A DNA stretch of 51,037 nt from a virus (lineage: Duplodnaviria; Caudoviricetes): the IMG/VR virus record IMGVR_UViG_3300036851_000137, positions 1-51,037 of that record. The stretch is one strand, 5' to 3'. The notes under the pieces are model-generated. The model did no database searches and was not told the DNA's origin. It saw only the letters and a program-made list of their open reading frames with translations. Shown piece by piece: positions 19,851 through 27,093 of the stretch; position 1 is the first letter of the stretch, and each line of letters begins with the position of its first letter. The translations under genes were made by a program, and so were the position numbers.

Positions 19851-20089
19851 TTCGACCGCGCGCTAAAGCATCCGGCCGGCCTCGGTTCGCACCGCATCTC
19901 GACGATGCGCAGGTCGACAAACAGCCCAAAGTCGCGAACGGCGGTCATGGCCTCACGGCATGTCGATAGGGACTTTGCGCAGATCGGCTCGGGTGCTGGC
20001 GGGGTAGTTATTAATTCATAATCCCCCGACCCCGCTGCCGCAACAACAAATGGAACGATGATTGATAGAAGGATAATTCTAAACAACAT
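19823..20089 (-). CDS. Small secreted Cys-rich protein
   Basis: Signal-like N-terminus MLFRIILLSIIVPFVVAAA; six Cys. Confidence 0.45.
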   Translation of the reverse strand: MLFRIILLSIIVPFVVAAAGSGDYELITTPPAPEPICAKSLSTCREAMTAVRDFGLFVDLRIVEMRCEPRPAGCFSARSNCIVGYSCR

Positions 20090-20666
20090 GGTGCCACTTC
20101 GTCCCATTGATGACACCCCAAACAGTGCCTTGGCAGACCCCAAATAGTTTTGCTATTTCACGTTGCGTTGCTTTAGTATTAGCAAGAATGCGTATCTTTC
20201 TCACGTCGTCGTCAGTGAGTTTTGCTTCTCCATGAGCCATACCTTTGCGACCGTCTCGCCCAAAATTAGGGTGCCGATTGCCCAACAACACGGTCCCATG
20301 TCGGTATCTGTCTGCCGTATTTTCTTTTGCTGTACCCCACCTGAGATTGGAAGGTGTGTTGTTTGCGCGCGCCCCATCATTGTGACACGCTTGGTGAGCG
20401 GGCGACGGACACGGACCAACAAATGCCTCTAAAACCAACGCGTGCACAGGGCGACGCTTTACTGTGGAGATCAGTCCGCTATAGATTTTGACATAAAGGT
20501 ATCCACCTCGACCTTTTGTGGGGCGCATCATTAGGCCGGGACGCGCTCCTCTTGGTAGCGAGCGAACACGTCCCAAATCGGAAACTTCATAGCGTCCATC
20601 ATGCCCAACGACAGATCGCCAATTTTCGGCGGTGCCGATCGCGGCGTAGGACGGGAGTGCGATCAT
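20079..20666 (-). CDS. NUMOD4/HNH homing endonuclease
   Basis: ENWRSVVG...YEVSDLGRVRS, VHALVLEAFVG, CHNDG...NNTPSNLRW, C-terminal HTH. Confidence 0.92.
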   Translation of the reverse strand: MIALPSYAAIGTAENWRSVVGHDGRYEVSDLGRVRSLPRGARPGLMMRPTKGRGGYLYVKIYSGLISTVKRRPVHALVLEAFVGPCPSPAHQACHNDGARANNTPSNLRWGTAKENTADRYRHGTVLLGNRHPNFGRDGRKGMAHGEAKLTDDDVRKIRILANTKATQREIAKLFGVCQGTVWGVINGTKWHHVV

Positions 20667-20808
20667 CGGGGTGCCAGGAATGCATTGCCGCGCGCCACTT
20701 GGCCCTTGGTCGGGCGGCGCGGTGGTACGTGTTTCGCCGGCTTGCGCGGCGGCTTCTTCGGGGATTTCATCAGTGTAGCACCTGACCCTTAATGTTTGTT
20801 ATGAGCAA

Positions 20809-21631
20809 TTATACGCCGCAGATGCCTTCGCACTCGTTGTTGAACAAATCGCCTTGCCCGCGCTCCGCATCTGACCTGATGTCGGCGTGTTCGAGAGGGA
20901 CAAGACTGCGGTGCAAAAACAATTCGCTCCGCGTCTTGCTGAAACCGGGGCGGGATAAGGCGATCAACCGCAATGGCGTCCTCCCACTCCGCAGGATTCT
21001 GGCGGATCTGTCGCCAATGCTCATTCGAGTGGTACGGGCAACCGATGCACGAGCTTTTGGCTGGCGTGGGGAACCCGTTGCGCTCCATCCAAAGGAGGCA
21101 GTCGCTGCGGCTTAGGCGTTTCTCAATAAGCGGCCAGCGTCGCTCAATCCACGCGAGCGGCCCTGGCTTGACGCGGTAGATTTCATCCATCGAAATGCCG
21201 ATCCACATTTCGATCTGCGGTGTTTTCGGTTGCCGTTGGCGCGGCTTGATCCCGAGCTTTTCCTTCATCCGGCGCTCGATGGGTTCGATCTTGTAATGAC
21301 CCGTGCATTGCCTTCGGAGCGGAGCCGCAACCCCTCCCTTTCCCGCGACGAAGAATGGCGCCGTCGCCGCTCGGCCTTGCCCTCGGATAGCCTCGCCACG
21401 GGCCAATTTGTCGATGTCCTCGCGAATGTTGCCCTGCCTGACGATTTCAATGGGGAACGGTAGGACATTTGGCGACATGAGCCAGCGGAGGTGATCGTAA
21501 ACCGTCGCGGGTTCCCATCCCGTATCGGCGAAGATGGCGCAATCCGGCATTGGTCCTATCTCACCCGCCGCCGCCATGAGGGCAAGCGTGGTCGATTGGA
21601 CGCCGGCGCCTAGCGATAGGATGCGGAGCAT
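20809..21631 (-). pseudogene. PAPS-reductase-like phage protein with a frameshift near 20950
   Basis: SLGAGVQST, FADTGWE, RQCT..YKI, KSSCIGCPYH; the expected C-terminus LFLHRSLVPL...NNECEGICGV is in another frame ending at 20809. Confidence 0.75.
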
Positions 21632-22240: not shown

Positions 22241-22540
22241 TTAATGATCTTTATCAGTAGGCGCAATTATTGGGTTCCTATACGACATCTCGGCGTACTT
22301 ACTCCATAACCCCTCCGCAACAATGAAACTCTCTGCCATAACAGCTCTAGTTTCAGCCATTTGATAATAGGGCATCTTGCGTCCGTTTAATAACTCGCGA
22401 ACAGCGACGACATACTCGTGCCCGTCCGGCGAGTCCCGCACTCCAAGCAACGAGCCGATATCCTCAATGATCGACCTAAGAATACGCTCTTGCGGCGGCA
22501 TTGTCGGATCTAGCAAATCAACGGATTTCATATTCCCCAT
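22241..22540 (-). CDS. Hypothetical protein
   Basis: Bracketed by boundary sites 22238 and 22548. Confidence 0.55.
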   Translation of the reverse strand: MGNMKSVDLLDPTMPPQERILRSIIEDIGSLLGVRDSPDGHEYVVAVRELLNGRKMPYYQMAETRAVMAESFIVAEGLWSKYAEMSYRNPIIAPTDKDH

Positions 22541-22563
22541 ACCTTTACCGAGAAGGATACTTA

Positions 22564-22776
22564 TCAACTAATTGGAACGTGAACGGCCTTGCGTGGGTCG
22601 CCCATCAATCGGCGCAATTCATCATTCGGATGATCCGCAGGTTCTGCTAACCCCCGTTCGATCAGATACCGCATCGCTGCCGCCCGCGTCGGAGGCACCG
22701 TCTGCCGCTGCCGCCACTCATCCACGCGGGCTAGAAGCTCCGGCGCAATCAGCATCTCAAAACGATTTTCTCTCAT
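22564..22776 (-). CDS. Ribbon-helix-helix regulator divergent from the RAMP-like operon
   Basis: MRENRFEMLIAPELLARVDEWRQRQ..PTRAAAMRYLIERGL. Confidence 0.8.
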   Translation of the reverse strand: MRENRFEMLIAPELLARVDEWRQRQTVPPTRAAAMRYLIERGLAEPADHPNDELRRLMGDPRKAVHVPIS

Positions 22777-22802
22777 GCCCGGCATGATACGGAATTTTCC
22801 GG

Positions 22803-22830
22803 TTGACGCAAGCCAAAAATCTGCTACGGT
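22803..22830 (+). promoter_or_regulatory. Putative promoter of the RAMP-like/guide operon
   Basis: TTGACG-16 nt-TACGGT; same -10 hexamer as the leftward promoter at 14936. Confidence 0.55.
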
Positions 22831-22843
22831 ACATTCCGTAACG

Positions 22844-22913
22844 TCATCAGAATGGCACGGCACACACGGGAGTAGCCTTGCACTGAATGGCATAGACTTC
22901 AGCGGAAAGGCTC
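22844..22913 (+). ncRNA. 5-nt-periodic leader tract (putative gapped guide RNA)
   Basis: 14 consecutive pentamers, all N[GA/CA/GC]NN: tcatc agaat ggcac ggcac acacg ggagt agcct tgcac tgaat ggcat agact tcagc ggaaa ggctc. Confidence 0.75.
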
Positions 22914-22917
22914 AACG

Positions 22918-23493
22918 ATGGACACGATAAAATTCCATTTCAAAGGCTCGGCGCCAGCAATGATGCAGAGCGAACGGTTGGCAAACCCAATCGACCCGTT
23001 GACGAAAACGCTCAAGGCGATCACTGGCAAGCGGAAAAAGACCGACGCTGATTACGAGGAAATCGCCCGCATCAAGTTTCTGGGGAGCCTCTACTATGAC
23101 GAAAGGCTCGGTCCATATTGGCCGGCTCAGAACGTTGACCGCATGTTCTACGATGCGGCGAAACTGTCAAGGCGTGGCCCGGACGTGAAGCGGGCATTCA
23201 TGACGCTCGATGACAAGATCCCCATTATCTACGAAGGTCCACGCACCCCCGAAGCCATGTATGCTGTGCGGGATCGCTTCGTCGATGAACGCTCGGTCGT
23301 AGTGCAAAAGTCGCGCATTATGATGACGCGGCCCATTTTCCGAGAATGGGAAATCAAATTTGAGGCAGCATATGATCCCGAGGTTATCAATCGGGATGAC
23401 GTGATCGCTTTCGCACAGTTGGCGGGGCAGATGATCGGTCTCTCGACCTATCGCCCCCGGTTCGGCCGGTTTCAAGTTGTGTCTGCGGAATAG
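22918..23493 (+). CDS. RAMP/Cas7-like RNA-binding protein (VIPR-like effector)
   Basis: N-terminal strand plus G.APAMM, YWPAQNV, TRPIFREWEI, and C-terminal Gly-rich loop GQMIGLSTYRPRFGRFQV; flanked on both sides by periodic non-coding arrays. Confidence 0.7.
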   Translation: MDTIKFHFKGSAPAMMQSERLANPIDPLTKTLKAITGKRKKTDADYEEIARIKFLGSLYYDERLGPYWPAQNVDRMFYDAAKLSRRGPDVKRAFMTLDDKIPIIYEGPRTPEAMYAVRDRFVDERSVVVQKSRIMMTRPIFREWEIKFEAAYDPEVINRDDVIAFAQLAGQMIGLSTYRPRFGRFQVVSAE

Positions 23494-23819
23494 CCGTGGC
23501 GAGGAATTGATAACCGAGGCACAGATAACATACAGGCGAGGGTAAAACAGCGGATTGGTTCATTACATAGGCGCGCACATGCGATGAATGCAGCCGATGA
23601 CACGGGCGACGAGATCATACGACGCCACGAGAGTCGATCAGCAATCAGGACAACGGATTGGTTTATCAAATTGGCGGTGATTACATTTGAGCCGACACGA
23701 AGCTACCGGACCCGATCACAGAGGATTGGTTTATTACATCGGAGCGGACCAGCAATGAGCAGTCGCATCTGCACTCAGCAGATCGCAAGTGATAACCGCA
23801 GAGTGGAAAGGAATGGGTT
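23493..23819 (+). ncRNA. Array of four 5-nt-periodic tracts separated by GGATTGGTTYATY
   Basis: Separators at 23552, 23655 and 23723, with a variant GGAATGGGTTAT at 23810; the pentamers between them fit N[GA/CA/GC]NN, with 17 of 17 at 23570-23654. Confidence 0.85.
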
Positions 23820-24323
23820 ATGTCAGAACACCTTTTGCAGCAATATCCGGCATGGCGCGAAGCGATCAAGGCATTCATGCAGGAGCGTTTCGCGGCTGGA
23901 GATACCGTAACGTTCGATTGGCTCTATGAACATTTCCTGATCCAGCGCCCCGCTGGCTCGACCTTGCTCGCCGATGCGCAGAAGGCCGAGTTGCAATTCC
24001 TTAGCCAGTTCAAGAACTTTGAGGATGCTCTTCTAACCGAACATCAAATCGCGTTGACCAACGTGCGCGGCGTCGGATACCGCATCGTGCCGGCGGCAGA
24101 GCAAACGCGATGGGCCGAAGAGGAGGGCGTCGGCCAAGTTAAGAAGGCGATCCGCAAACTCGGCGATCGGCTTACCAACGTTGATCTCGTGCAGATCACC
24201 AACGAGCAACGCAAGGAGAACGCCGACGCTCTCGCTCGCCTAGCAATGCTGTCAGGAATGGTCAAGAGCGCGGTAGAACGGAAGTCCGCGCTTGAAATCA
24301 AGAAGCCAAAAGGTGACTGTTAA
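23820..24323 (+). CDS. Accessory protein of the RAMP-like operon (possible winged helix plus helical tail)
   Basis: GGAAAGGA RBS; LTNVRGVGYRIV wing-like motif; stop lies in boundary site 24317. Confidence 0.75.
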   Translation: MSEHLLQQYPAWREAIKAFMQERFAAGDTVTFDWLYEHFLIQRPAGSTLLADAQKAELQFLSQFKNFEDALLTEHQIALTNVRGVGYRIVPAAEQTRWAEEEGVGQVKKAIRKLGDRLTNVDLVQITNEQRKENADALARLAMLSGMVKSAVERKSALEIKKPKGDC

Positions 24324-24724
24324 GTGTTCTTATCGGCAATCTGCCCTGTAATCCATGCATGCATTCGCGTAAAGCGATCCTCGGGTGTTTCTCGGGAGTA
24401 CCACTCATCGTTCAGCCACATGATTTCCGCAGCCAATGCCGGGGCAATGCCGAATCTGTCGGCAATCGTTTCTAGATCCTCGGGGTCAATCTCGCGCATG
24501 TTGACGCCGCGCGCCTTCCCGACCGCACCGATTGAGCATACTTCGCCTTCTTGTTCTAGTTCATTTTGGATAAGGCACTTGCGCTCCATGCCATCAAAGG
24601 CAACCAACATCTCTCGTAGGAACGCCTGTCCCTTTCTTCCTTTGATGGCGCTAGCAACAGCGCCCCGCCACCGGATCAGCGACCATTGATCGTCGTAATC
24701 TTCGCTATATCCCGACCGGCTCAT
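24320..24724 (-). CDS. Conserved phage hypothetical protein
   Basis: MSRSGYSED...WRGAVASAIKGRKGQAFLREM; bracketed by sites 24317 and 24732. Confidence 0.75.
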   Translation of the reverse strand: MSRSGYSEDYDDQWSLIRWRGAVASAIKGRKGQAFLREMLVAFDGMERKCLIQNELEQEGEVCSIGAVGKARGVNMREIDPEDLETIADRFGIAPALAAEIMWLNDEWYSRETPEDRFTRMHAWITGQIADKNT

Positions 24725-24751: not shown

Positions 24752-25882
24752 TCAATCAGCCGCCACATCGGCAAACAAGGGGCACTCGTCCTTGATCCGC
24801 CGCCGCGCCATCTCAGCATAAATGGGGTTTAGTTCGATGCCTATTGCATTGCACACTAAGCGATCGGCAACGAGTAGCGTAGTCCCGGCTCCGGCGAATG
24901 GATCCAGCACCGTCCCGCCTGATGGCGAACCCGCACGAATGCACGGCTCAACCAAGGCCGGCGGGAATGTAGCGAAATGCGCCTCCGGAAACGGTTGCGC
25001 TCCCACAGTCCAAACCGACCGCTTATTGCGCGTCCCGAGAACGGTGTATTCCGATTCTAGGAAGATCGCTGTACGCCGATCATTGACATCGCTCACATCA
25101 TCCCTTGCCGCAGCCGAATGAGCACCCACAATGCGCCCCTCGGAGACAGTCGGCTCGGCAATCGCCGCCGCATCAAAATAGTACCGATCGCTCTTGCTCA
25201 GCAAGAATAGGTACTCGTGCGCCTTCGTGCAGCGGTCGGTGACACTTTCCGGCATCGGATTCGGCTTCGCCCAAATAATGTCCTGCCGGAGCCACCAGCC
25301 ATCGGCGCGCAACGCGAAGGCTAGCATCCACGGGATGCCGATCAGATCCTTGCCTTTGATGTCGCCGCCTACCGGACCAACGCCATCACGGTTGCGCTGC
25401 CCGCGTTCGTCAACGATTCCGTCAGCTGTGTTCGTCGCCTGCTTGCCTGCGTCAGGATTGCCACCCTTGCCGCTCCCCGCGTAGCTGTCGCCAATGTTGA
25501 GCCAGAGCGTGCCGTCACTCCGCAGCACGCGGCGGACCTCGTGGAACACTGCGACCATTGCCGCCACGTATTCGTCGGGCGTCGATTCGAGACCGAGTTG
25601 CGCGTCAATTCGGACGGCACCGCATTTCGCGCACGTCTGACCCTGAGGCATCGTGTGTGTTCTAACTTTCACGGTTTCGCTAGTGTAGCCCGCTAACGAA
25701 GACGACGACGACGCAAGAGCCATACCTTTATGATCGCACGCCGGGTCGCCGCCCTCCCACGAGGCGGTGCCGTAATCCCTCAACCCATAATACGGCGGCG
25801 AGGTCACACAGCAATGCACGCTCTCGGCCGGCAGCTTCGCCAGCTCGGTTAGCGCGTCGCCTGTGATGACGCGAACGGTCAT
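24752..25882 (-). CDS. DNA methyltransferase, beta class (N4-C/N6-A), SPPY
   Basis: VTSPPY, IIWAKPNPMPESV, HFATFP, VLDPFAGAGTT. Confidence 0.93.
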   Translation of the reverse strand: MTVRVITGDALTELAKLPAESVHCCVTSPPYYGLRDYGTASWEGGDPACDHKGMALASSSSSLAGYTSETVKVRTHTMPQGQTCAKCGAVRIDAQLGLESTPDEYVAAMVAVFHEVRRVLRSDGTLWLNIGDSYAGSGKGGNPDAGKQATNTADGIVDERGQRNRDGVGPVGGDIKGKDLIGIPWMLAFALRADGWWLRQDIIWAKPNPMPESVTDRCTKAHEYLFLLSKSDRYYFDAAAIAEPTVSEGRIVGAHSAAARDDVSDVNDRRTAIFLESEYTVLGTRNKRSVWTVGAQPFPEAHFATFPPALVEPCIRAGSPSGGTVLDPFAGAGTTLLVADRLVCNAIGIELNPIYAEMARRRIKDECPLFADVAAD

Positions 25883-27093
25883 AAGCCTTTGTCGCTTAGG
25901 AAAAAATCCGGCACCGGAGCGCCCGCTTTGACGCGCTCGCCAATCGCTTGGACGGCCAGATCATAGGACTCCTTGGAGTCGATCGCTTCGTCGAATGGGC
26001 GATGCTCAAACAGCGGTAATTTTGCGCGTTCCTGAGAGACGGCGGCAGTCCTGCCGCCGTCTCTCAGGGCACCAATGCCCTCTGGCTGATGCCGGTTCTT
26101 GGCGACAACGCTATGCCGCCCCTCCCCCTTATAGTGCGCCATGCGCTCGCGGATGTCGGCGACATAGGCATCCTCGCGCTCGATCAGGATCGCGTTACGT
26201 CCAGTCGCGAGTGCAGCAACTCCGGTCGTACCGCTGCCGGCGAACGGGTCGAGCAACAGGCCGCCAGGAGGACAGACCAGCGCGGCGAGCCACTTCATCA
26301 ACTCGACCGGCTTCACAGTCGGATGGCGGCTGCCCCAGCGGTCTTGCCGCCCAGCCTTAGCCGAGAAGAAGAAGCGAGCGGCCGATCCGCCGTCGTCTTT
26401 TCCGTTTCGCTTGGCTGCGACACTGGCCGCGCTATCGGGGAACGCCACCAGCACCTCGTCGGAACCGTCGTGACAGATGTTCGCGGGCCAGCGGCCGACG
26501 TTAGGATCGAGGTCGGCATTGACGCCAACCATTCGAGAAAACGGCGCATTGCCGTTTGGGGTTTTGTCCTTCGACAAACTCGCTGGCACGCCTCGGGACA
26601 CGCCGATCCGGCACTCATCGATCTGCATCATCCGCTTGCCGCCCGGCTTGTAGGCGAGAACCAGTGGCTCGTAGGCGGGTTTTAGCATGTCCCGACGCTT
26701 GGGAAACCCGGTCGCGAATAGCCACATAATGCAATCCTGAATGACGAACCCGCCATCCTCGATCGCACACGCCAGCCGGTGATAGGTGCGGGTGCCGCCG
26801 AACGCGACAAGGAACGCGCCAGGGCGCAGGATCGTCGCTACCGTGGCCCATGTCTCAGGGCGGAAGGCGATGTCGCCACCGTCCCATTGCTGACCCATGA
26901 AGCCGCCTGAGAGGCGTACCATAGCGCCATCGCGACCGTGCTGAGCCGGAGCCGCATCGACCGCGCCAAAGCGCTTCTGCGTTGCCGTCAAGTGATAGGG
27001 TGGATCTGTCACGATCGCATCGCACGCCACGCCCTCTACGACGAGACGCGGGATCGCTTCTAGCATGTCGGCATGTTCGATGCGGATGGTCAT
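25879..27093 (-). CDS. DNA methyltransferase, beta class (N6-A), DPPY
   Basis: VTDPPY, GRWPAN, HPTVKP, LLDPFAGSGTT. Confidence 0.92.
   Translation of the reverse strand: MTIRIEHADMLEAIPRLVVEGVACDAIVTDPPYHLTATQKRFGAVDAAPAQHGRDGAMVRLSGGFMGQQWDGGDIAFRPETWATVATILRPGAFLVAFGGTRTYHRLACAIEDGGFVIQDCIMWLFATGFPKRRDMLKPAYEPLVLAYKPGGKRMMQIDECRIGVSRGVPASLSKDKTPNGNAPFSRMVGVNADLDPNVGRWPANICHDGSDEVLVAFPDSAASVAAKRNGKDDGGSAARFFFSAKAGRQDRWGSRHPTVKPVELMKWLAALVCPPGGLLLDPFAGSGTTGVAALATGRNAILIEREDAYVADIRERMAHYKGEGRHSVVAKNRHQPEGIGALRDGGRTAAVSQERAKLPLFEHRPFDEAIDSKESYDLAVQAIGERVKAGAPVPDFFLSDKGL

What the first reader, a model, noticed from the sequence alone, without database searches (positions are those of the whole stretch)
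23565..23654. Tract 2 decodes to an IS1595-family transposase motif when the wobble base is skipped
Seen: the NN pairs of the 18 pentamers are TA GC CA GA AT GC TG CG GA GA TA CG CG GT TC AA GG AC. Taken as codon positions 1-2 they read Y-A-(H/Q)-E-(M/I)-A-W-R-E-D-Y-R-R-V-S-N-G-T. Knowledge (recalled): YAxExAWREDxRRxSNG is the C-terminal catalytic-Glu region of IS1595/ISXO2-type transposases. The base after each NN cannot serve as codon position 3, since it would give TAG and TGA. Inference: the guide reads two of every three target bases and ignores the wobble position, so synonymous mutation would not let the target escape.
Basis: partly seen in the sequence, partly recalled or inferred. Interest (0 to 1): 0.93.

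Follow-up and report, generated by a model that had tools for sequence, protein, structure and literature searches.

The report
Phage VIPR guide aimed at IS1595 transposases
This stretch is one guide RNA of a phage-borne VIPR system, an RNA-guided DNA-silencing system first described in 2026, and its variable bases spell, two of every three letters, a conserved motif of IS1595 jumping-gene enzymes.

Summary
From 23568 to 23654 there are 18 five-base units, each two variable bases plus a scaffold triplet N-[G/C]-[A/C].

The tract is one of five in a compact module:
- a 191-aa Cas7-like RAMP gene;
- the pentamer arrays;
- a 167-aa partner gene.

This is a VIPR system, described in four 2026 bioRxiv preprints. 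In them the variable dinucleotides read double-stranded DNA while skipping every third (wobble) base.

The specific claim also holds:
- A 10-unit version of the gapped pattern (1-5 chance hits expected) found at least 120 loci in bacterial genomes.
- 113 of the 120 lie in frame in IS1595-family transposase genes.
- The 8 unsearched units matched 4-5 more times in 101 loci.
- Best sites match 33 of 36 read bases; no perfect site was found.
- Gaps of 0, 2 or 3 bases, shuffled guides and 12 guides from other phages do not match.

The target is one subgroup of IS1595, not the whole family. Expression, binding and silencing were not tested.

This scan has noted VIPR guides spelling transposase motifs before, on other phage DNA.

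Verdict: a new member of a known kind; interest moderate.

The parts
22842..22911 (+). Leader pentamer tract (14 conforming units) in the 5' region of the vipr gene; a candidate upstream vrRNA
   Evidence: Register print and scaffold triplets. No target was sought beyond my local loci, where it did not exceed shuffled guides.
22918..23493 (+). vipr gene: 191-aa Cas7-like RAMP protein
   Evidence: phrog_4652, no Pfam family. AlphaFold2 pLDDT 95.1. Foldseek top hits are Csm3/Cmr4/Cas7 chains, best E 1.6e-5, with 42 hits at E<=1e-3. 35% identical, E 2e-34, to a protein of E. coli Ounavirinae phages that is flanked by GGY/NN arrays.
23496..23551 (+). Tract 1 (12 units, one 4-nt unit): guide whose dinucleotides match the first DDE motif of classical IS1595 transposases
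   Evidence: Up to 22 of 24 bases at gap 1 only, in loci chosen by Pfam. 21 of 24 in viral contig L138.
23552..23567 (+). Conserved junction, copy 1 (GGATTGGTTCATTACA); a short tail or punctuation between guides
   Evidence: Three copies of GGATTGGTTYATYA, all on the + strand.
23568..23654 (+). Tract 2, the finding: 18 pentamer units whose variable dinucleotides read an IS1595-subgroup transposase motif with a one-base skip
23655..23670 (+). Conserved junction, copy 2
23671..23722 (+). Tract 3 (11 units); target unknown
   Evidence: Register. No match above shuffled guides in my loci.
23723..23738 (+). Conserved junction, copy 3
   Evidence: Together with the last units of tract 3 it forms a terminator-like hairpin, 23712-23729.
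23739..23812 (+). Tract 4 (15 units, one 4-nt unit), running into the ribosome-binding region of the next gene; target not tested here beyond my loci
   Evidence: No match above shuffled guides in IS1595 loci.
23820..24323 (+). vap-like accessory gene (167 aa)
   Evidence: phrog_5926. 28% identical over 116 aa, E 1e-12, to the gene just downstream of vipr in the Ounavirinae phage. Its homologs' longest-contig lengths coincide with those of Vipr homologs, e.g. 34,809, 87,763 and 42,370 b. Model pLDDT 91.1; only weak winged-helix-type fold hits, best E 0.09.

Best explanation
Tract 2 is the variable region of one VIPR guide RNA (vrRNA) of a soil phage.

By analogy with the published SUSP1 system, the 191-aa Vipr protein should polymerise along the RNA, one protomer per pentamer. 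It buries each scaffold triplet and presents the two variable bases. The filament then pairs with one strand of double-stranded DNA, reading two bases and skipping one.

Read this way, the 18 dinucleotides equal codon positions 1 and 2 of an 18-codon stretch. That stretch sits at the C-terminal end of the DDE domain of one subgroup of IS1595-family transposase genes, which are common in Alphaproteobacteria. The guide has the sense of the coding strand, so it would pair with the template strand.

The expected outcome is binding within the transposase gene and transcriptional silencing that synonymous changes cannot escape.

Shown here:
- the anatomy of the tracts;
- the RAMP fold and the homology to canonical VIPR loci;
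- the in-silico match and its gap specificity.

Inferred, not shown: transcription and processing of the tract, filament formation, DNA binding, silencing, and the benefit to the phage.
For: Family and fold:
- The module's protein is a Cas7-like RAMP.
- It is homologous to the Vipr of E. coli Ounavirinae phages, whose locus shows GGY/NN arrays.
- That Ounavirinae protein carries 9 of the 10 RNA- and DNA-contacting residues named in the cryo-EM preprint at the same numbers (V instead of T at 175).
- Relatives at 29-39% identity carry clean GGC-NN arrays beside the gene.

Target match:
- The 10-unit pattern has 1.1-5.0 chance hits expected.
- About 73 of the 80 rows shown are labelled as Alphaproteobacteria.
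- 113 of 120 sites lie in ORFs with blastp E<1e-5 to Pfam-verified IS1595 transposases. The 7 others have 0-2 matches at the free units.
- The 8 free units match 4.1 times on average against 0.5 expected.
- 104 of 120 loci reach the published cut-off of 80% of read bases, i.e. at least 29 of 36. 57 reach 31 of 36, where 0.02 chance sites are expected in the whole collection.
- Five metagenome sites match 16 of 18 units, 32-33 of 36 bases.

Controls:
- Gaps of 0, 2 and 3 give at most 23 of 36. Twenty shuffled guides give at most 25 of 36.
- In 30 loci chosen by Pfam alone, only gap 1 gives a hit (29 of 36). That locus also shows the subgroup's variant of the first DDE motif.
- 12 guides from five other VIPR loci do not beat shuffles on the same loci.
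- There is no self-target and no IS1595 gene in the phage.
- The neighbouring tract 1 independently matches another IS1595 motif, again at gap 1 only.
- The tract has no predicted structure of its own, z = -0.54.
Against: - No perfect target was found in viral, genome or metagenome collections.
- With at most 3 mismatches, the pattern hit 1 of 3 chosen genomes and 0 of 401 sampled genomes of the class.
- Units 3, 11 and 18 rarely agree with known genes: 18, 5 and 3 of 120.
- The host is unknown, so I cannot say that the phage ever meets such an element.
- The footprint is not the most conserved part of the protein. Among 120 close homologs its mean column identity is 0.830 against 0.832 for the whole protein, rank 149 of 301 windows.
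- The scaffold is not the published GGY, and the tract has 18 units against the published 9-16. The one-base skip rule is therefore carried over from a 35%-identical protein.
- No RNA data exist for this phage.
- The 120 loci were chosen with part of the pattern, so only the free units, the Pfam-chosen set and the other controls are unbiased.
Confidence: 0.8

Rival explanations
1. The guide is real, but its biological target is not free insertion sequences. It is a competing mobile element (prophage, satellite or plasmid) that carries or depends on an IS1595-type transposase gene. The published SUSP1 guides target a satellite's recombinase in the same way.
For: - Published natural VIPR targets are satellites, prophages and rival VIPR loci.
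- Three viral contigs hold ORFs with the motif, at 28-31 of 36 bases. One of them holds two IS1595-family ORFs.
- The genomes of L049 and L037 each hold only one PF12762 match.
- I found no clear terminal inverted repeats around four of the best ORFs.
Against: - The family is multi-copy in several genomes, with 20-28 or more matches in G009, G067 and G090.
- NCBI names these proteins IS1595 family transposases.
- The viral-contig matches are weaker than the chromosomal ones.
Confidence: 0.12
2. The guide uses the many IS1595 copies only as abundant landing sites on the host chromosome. They would act as a decoy, a store for the complex, or a means of general interference with the host. Silencing transposition would not be the purpose. 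This resembles the REP-targeting solo vrRNAs of satellites.
For: A satellite's solo vrRNAs are reported to redirect VIPR to repetitive REP elements (abstract and introduction). IS1595 is repetitive in some genomes.
Against: - Here the guides sit in the phage's own VIPR locus, next to vipr.
- Two guides read in-frame coding motifs of two subgroups. That fits selection for constrained codons rather than for copy number.
Confidence: 0.05
3. The pentamer tract is only a periodic protein-binding RNA or DNA. It would serve, for instance, as an autoregulatory or packaging array read like the triplet repeats bound by TRAP. Its variable bases would carry no information, and the IS1595 match would be chance.
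For: - A similar tract lies in the gene's own leader.
- In relatives the variable dinucleotides look compositionally biased, from my reading.
Against: - Chance expectation for at least 31 of 36 bases is 0.02 sites in the whole collection, yet 57 loci reach it.
- The matches are in frame and in one gene family.
- They occur at one gap size only.
Confidence: 0.02

Closest known systems
Type II VIPR system of Escherichia phage SUSP1 and the Pseudomonas fulva prophage (bioRxiv 10.64898/2026.04.26.720920; 10.64898/2026.04.26.720927; 10.64898/2026.10.15.759431)
   Same: - A small RAMP protein of about 190 aa with a G-loop.
- An adjacent vap1-like gene.
- Several guide RNAs made of tandem pentamers with two variable bases.
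- In silico, target matches appear only with a one-base skip that falls on the wobble position of coding sequence.
- The system is phage-borne.
   Different: - The scaffold is N-[G/C]-[A/C], not GGY.
- Both residues reported to read the first G (H17, D177) are replaced, by Q17 and T177.
- Tract 2 has 18 units, against the reported 9-16.
- Four guides lie between vipr and vap, separated only by 16-nt junctions, with no long structured tail.
- The predicted targets are transposase genes rather than satellites, prophages or rival VIPR loci.
- Nothing here was tested at the bench.
Non-canonical VIPR arrays reported by the Evo-PIN survey (bioRxiv 10.64898/2026.10.21.760802; passages only)
   Same: Five-base period, a scaffold other than GGY, and a Vipr-like fold next door.
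   Different: The motifs named there (GAC, CAC, WGT, TGH plus NN) fix or nearly fix all three scaffold bases and repeat 10 times. Here the first scaffold base is free, and the tracts have 11-18 units.
Cas7 backbone of class 1 CRISPR effectors (Csm3, Cmr4, type VII Cas7)
   Same: The fold is the same. By the literature, a thumb breaks the guide-target duplex periodically.
   Different: CRISPR guides are contiguous spacers with one flipped base in six, and they need no sequence scaffold. The window holds no CRISPR repeats and no other cas genes near this module.

Membership tests
VIPR system | Vipr protein with a RAMP fold (RRM core, glycine-rich loop, thumb) | tested here: met
   AlphaFold2 pLDDT 95.1, pTM 0.87. 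Foldseek against the PDB gave 42 hits at E<=1e-3, the top ones Csm3/Cmr4/Cas7 chains with TM about 0.5. The C-terminal G-loop is conserved (G174, R179, P180, G183, R184, F185).
VIPR system | Sequence homology to a characterised Vipr | tested here: met
   tblastn hit 131 phage records, with Ounavirinae E. coli and Salmonella phages at 35% identity, E 2e-34. The ESCO56 protein has H17, K33, E71, M72, R138, C173, D177, W178 and R179 at the numbers given for SUSP1 Vipr. The SUSP1 record itself was not fetched.
VIPR system | Guide RNAs of tandem pentamers: a fixed trinucleotide alternating with a variable dinucleotide | tested here: met
   Five tracts, 71 units. Relatives carry GGC-NN arrays.
VIPR system | Canonical GGY scaffold | tested here: not met
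   Scaffold position 1 is G25 A21 T15 C10; position 2 is G48 C20; position 3 is A52 C18. The literature admits related consensus motifs, so this does not exclude membership.
VIPR system | Conserved 3' tail after the repeat tract | tested here: inconclusive
   A conserved 14-16-nt junction follows tracts 1-3. No significant fold was predicted, z = -0.54. RNA ends are unknown.
VIPR system | Adjacent vap accessory gene | tested here: met
   The 167-aa gene is homologous to the gene downstream of vipr in the Ounavirinae phage, E 1e-12. DNA-binding fold support is only weak.
VIPR system | One-base skip rule for targets | tested here: met
   In silico only. Tract 2 and tract 1 match IS1595 genes at gap 1 and not at gaps 0, 2 or 3.
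VIPR system | vrRNA expressed, bound by Vipr, silences its target | not testable with these tools
   No RNA run holds this DNA.
IS1595 family transposase (the target) | ISXO2-like DDE domain plus N-terminal zinc ribbon | tested here: met
   PF12762 (E 5e-40 to 5e-44) and PF12760 in 6 of 6 ORFs. NF033547 in 6 of 6. 113 of 120 ORFs are homologous to these. NCBI names them so.
IS1595 family transposase (the target) | A mobile, multi-copy element with terminal inverted repeats | tested here: inconclusive
   The family is multi-copy in some sampled genomes. There is only one copy each in G002 and G003. No clear terminal inverted repeats were found around four ORFs.

The most novel reading that the evidence does not exclude
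Soil phages use VIPR guides to police insertion sequences. [quoted passage not shown] The guides would silence transposition in the infected cell or lysogen and so protect the phage genome from insertion. Transposases would then be a target class of VIPR that the preprints' main texts do not mention. Together with this scan's notes on other phages, it would be a recurrent one.
Probability: 0.45. Interest if true: 0.6.

Novelty: new member of a known kind. Interest (0 to 1): 0.5.

Why it matters
The finding shows that the published VIPR code can be read directly from raw sequence, in a divergent system whose scaffold is not GGY. It also gives a testable natural target.

If the target is real, RNA-guided conflict among mobile elements extends from phage against satellite or prophage to phage against insertion sequence.

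The replaced G1-reading residues (Q17, T177) alongside a free first scaffold base offer a simple handle on how Vipr proteins set their RNA scaffold specificity.

Tried and rejected
- Rfam and Tandem Repeats Finder list nothing at the tract.
- blastn of the module against phage records found no match.
- The full 18-unit pattern found 0 exact matches in viral, genome and metagenome collections.
- The full pattern with at most 3 mismatches found 0 of 401 sampled genomes of the class of G001. The reversed-pattern control was also 0.
- **Third variable base.** I tested whether the first scaffold base is read against the skipped target base. Identity was 0.285 against 0.261 +/- 0.055 for shuffles, so I rejected the idea.
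- **Most conserved window.** I asked whether the footprint is the most conserved part of the transposase. It is not: rank 149 of 301 windows.
A scan for the junction motif gave 15 loci with no vipr or vap, all chance hits. A scan with a 72%-identical vap homolog found nothing. I therefore could not test whether the variable dinucleotides change between close relatives.
- No RNA holder is listed for this DNA.
- **Source run.** Laying the one DNA run, a possible source of the window, on an IS1595 gene (L137) gave only short contig pieces at 80-95% likeness, 13 laid. It did not show a better target.
- No sigma-70-like promoter was found in 22500-24500.
- The vap model has no PDB match at E<=1e-3.
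- pdb_via_wide was not on the machine.
- Terminal inverted repeats of the target elements were not found by a simple scan.
- I considered a TRAP-like, non-informational binding array before the literature search. The family-specific matches ruled it out.
- **Print status.** 'Transposase' and 'insertion sequence' do not occur as targets in the main text of 10.64898/2026.04.26.720920 or 10.64898/2026.10.15.759431. A full-text search for vrRNA, Vipr, transposase, insertion sequence and RAMP listed no other VIPR paper on this point. The six 'transposase' occurrences in 10.64898/2026.10.21.760802 were not read in context. Supplements, such as data S3 with the natural targets, are closed and may list such targets.

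Full report
**What is there.** The window is a complete 51,037-base virus record. An intergenic stretch lies between a 191-aa ORF (22918-23493, +) and a 167-aa ORF (23820-24323, +). It holds three copies of GGATTGGTTYATYA. Read in fives from 23568, the bases after the first copy form 18 units of two variable bases plus a triplet N-[G/C]-[A/C]. The only correction is that the register starts at 23568, not 23565.

[G/C][A/C] recurs at 20 consecutive 5-nt steps, against a background of 0.32. Nowhere else on the + strand reaches 15 of 17.

Four more tracts follow the same rule: one in the leader of the 191-aa gene and three more in the intergenic stretch. Of 71 units, scaffold position 2 is G or C in 68 and position 3 is A or C in 70. 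Position 1 and the two variable positions take all four bases. Tandem Repeats Finder and Rfam see nothing here.

**What kind of thing it is.** Neither ORF has a Pfam family. They fall in phrog_4652 and phrog_5926, both of unknown function.

Nine relatives of the 191-aa protein in viral contigs (29-39% identity) were fetched. L004, L005 and L009 show much cleaner arrays of GGC-NN pentamers beside the gene, and L012 is flagged by the same scan.

A full-text search then found four 2026 bioRxiv preprints on VIPR systems. I read:
- 10.64898/2026.04.26.720920: abstract, Results, Discussion and three Methods sections;
- 10.64898/2026.04.26.720927: abstract and two Results sections;
- 10.64898/2026.10.15.759431: abstract, Introduction, one Methods section and passages;
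- 10.64898/2026.10.21.760802: passages only.

They describe a roughly 20-kDa RAMP protein (Vipr), an accessory gene (vap), and guide RNAs of 9-16 YNNGG units with a 3' tail. The protein forms a filament that buries each GGY. The NN bases pair with a DNA strand while every third target base is skipped. In natural targets the skipped base is usually the codon wobble position. A match of at least 80% of read bases was used to call natural targets. Non-GGY scaffolds are reported.

**Membership.**
- An AlphaFold2 model of the 191-aa protein (pLDDT 95.1) matches Csm3/Cmr4/Cas7 chains of type III and VII CRISPR complexes. The best E is 1.6e-5, with 42 hits at E<=1e-3.
- By tblastn it hits 131 phage records, among them Ounavirinae phages of E. 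coli and Salmonella at 35% identity.
- In one of these, OM386665, the homolog is followed by a 146-aa gene and flanked by GGY-NN arrays.
- That protein has H17, K33, E71, M72, R138, C173, D177, W178 and R179 at the numbers the cryo-EM preprint gives for SUSP1 Vipr.
- The window's 167-aa protein is homologous to that 146-aa gene, E 1e-12.

The module is therefore a VIPR system of the SUSP1 (type II) sort. It departs from that system in four ways:
- The scaffold is not GGY.
- Tract 2 has 18 units.
- The guides lie between vipr and vap.
- The guides are separated only by 16-nt junctions with no predicted structure, z = -0.54.

In the window's protein the two residues said to read the first G are replaced: H17 by Q and D177 by T. 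R138 is kept and W178 is Y. That fits a scaffold whose first base is free and whose second is mostly G. This link is my inference.

**The specific claim.** The full 18-unit pattern with one-base gaps has no exact match in the viral, genome or metagenome collections.

A relaxed pattern of 10 units (20 bases) has 1.1-5.0 chance hits expected in 1.19e12 positions. About 73 of the 80 rows shown are labelled as Alphaproteobacteria.
- In 113 of the 120 the site lies in an ORF homologous to transposases. Of these, 6 of 6 tested carry PF12762, PF12760 and NF033547.
- The other 7 sites look like the expected chance hits, with 0-2 matches at the free units.
- The 8 units not used in the search match 4.1 times on average. 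Units 1, 2, 4, 5 and 14 agree in 108, 96, 115, 89 and 63 of 120 loci.
- Total unit matches are 14-15 of 18 in 101 loci.
- 104 of 120 loci reach 29 of 36 bases, 57 reach 31 of 36, and 4 reach 33 of 36. By chance, 0.02 sites at 31 or more are expected in the whole collection.

A 16-unit pattern found five metagenome sites at 32-33 of 36 bases. The 10-unit pattern found three viral contigs at 28-31 of 36, all in IS1595-like ORFs.

**Controls.**
- On the 120 loci, gaps of 0, 2 and 3 give at most 23 of 36. Twenty unit-shuffled guides give at most 25.
- Those loci were chosen with part of the pattern. I therefore also took 30 loci chosen only by PF12762, from 31 positive genomes among 121 sampled. 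Tract 2 hits one of them at gap 1 (29 of 36). That locus also shows the subgroup's variant of the first DDE motif. The other 29 stay at 22 or below, as do shuffles, which reach at most 25.
- So tract 2 reads one subgroup, not the whole family.
- In the same unbiased set, tract 1 matches the first DDE motif of the classical subgroup at up to 22 of 24 bases, at gap 1 only. Ten loci reach 19 or more against a shuffled maximum of 19. Viral contig L138 shows both kinds of gene side by side.
- Twelve guides from five other VIPR loci do not beat shuffles on my IS1595 loci.
- The phage has no IS1595 gene and no self-target.

**Limits.**
- No perfect target is known, and the host is unknown.
- Units 3, 11 and 18 seldom agree with known genes.
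- The footprint mixes ten near-invariant residues with variable ones. As a window it is no more conserved than the protein as a whole.
- Whether the site is the 'catalytic-Glu region' was not shown. It lies at the end of the Pfam domain. From the sequence printed I infer that the DDE glutamate lies some 25-30 residues upstream. Subgroup names from ISfinder are recalled only and were not tested.
- Expression, binding and silencing are all inferred from the SUSP1 work on a protein only 35% identical.

**Novelty.** The non-GGY scaffold has precedents. Transposase genes as natural targets are not mentioned in the main texts I could search, and supplements are closed. This scan's own notes record VIPR guides spelling IS1595 or IS1 motifs in other soil phages: e1-6223181, e1-6176482, e1-5795757 and e1-5851112. 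These are unchecked AI notes and I did not test them. I rate this a new member of a known kind, of moderate interest.

Noticed in passing
window 23496-23551: Tract 1 reads, at gap 1 only, the first DDE motif (VE.DETY[IV]GGK) of classical IS1595 transposases: up to 22 of 24 bases. This is a different subgroup from tract 2's target, whose own first motif it matches at only 17-18 of 24.
   Followed up: partly
window 22918-23493 (residues 17, 71, 72, 173, 175, 177, 178): Residues that read GGY in SUSP1 Vipr are replaced here (Q17, Q71, N72, I173, L175, T177, Y178). Close homologs P0003 and P0016 share Q17 and the S-T pair in the G-loop; P0039 has Q17 and G-T. Relatives with GGC scaffolds keep H17 and the D177 equivalent. 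This looks like co-variation of protein and RNA scaffold.
   Followed up: partly
L004 2580-2640, 2720-2770, 2860-2920: In this GC-rich relative the GGC-NN arrays are separated by a conserved element that ends in a tRNA T-arm-like hairpin. One copy is followed by a CCA-ending stretch. It may be a processing signal.
   Followed up: no
window 23712-23729: The last units of tract 3 pair with the GGATTGG of the junction, followed by a T-rich run (a terminator-like site). The junctions after tracts 1 and 2 do not form the same hairpin.
   Followed up: no
L138 876-2021 (-) and 7959-8555 (+): One viral contig carries two IS1595-family ORFs of the two subgroups. One matches tract 1 (21 of 24 bases) and the other matches tract 2 (28 of 36).
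   Followed up: partly
window 24752-27093 (-): Two adjacent N6/N4 DNA methyltransferase genes (PF01555) lie just downstream of the VIPR module, on the other strand.
   Followed up: no
window 20079-21631 (-): An HNH/NUMOD4 homing-endonuclease-like gene lies next to a PAPS-reductase-like gene (phrog_424).
   Followed up: no
window 23739-23812 and 22842-22911: Tract 4 and the leader tract both run into the ribosome-binding region of the next gene. Neither matched my IS1595 loci above shuffles.
   Followed up: no
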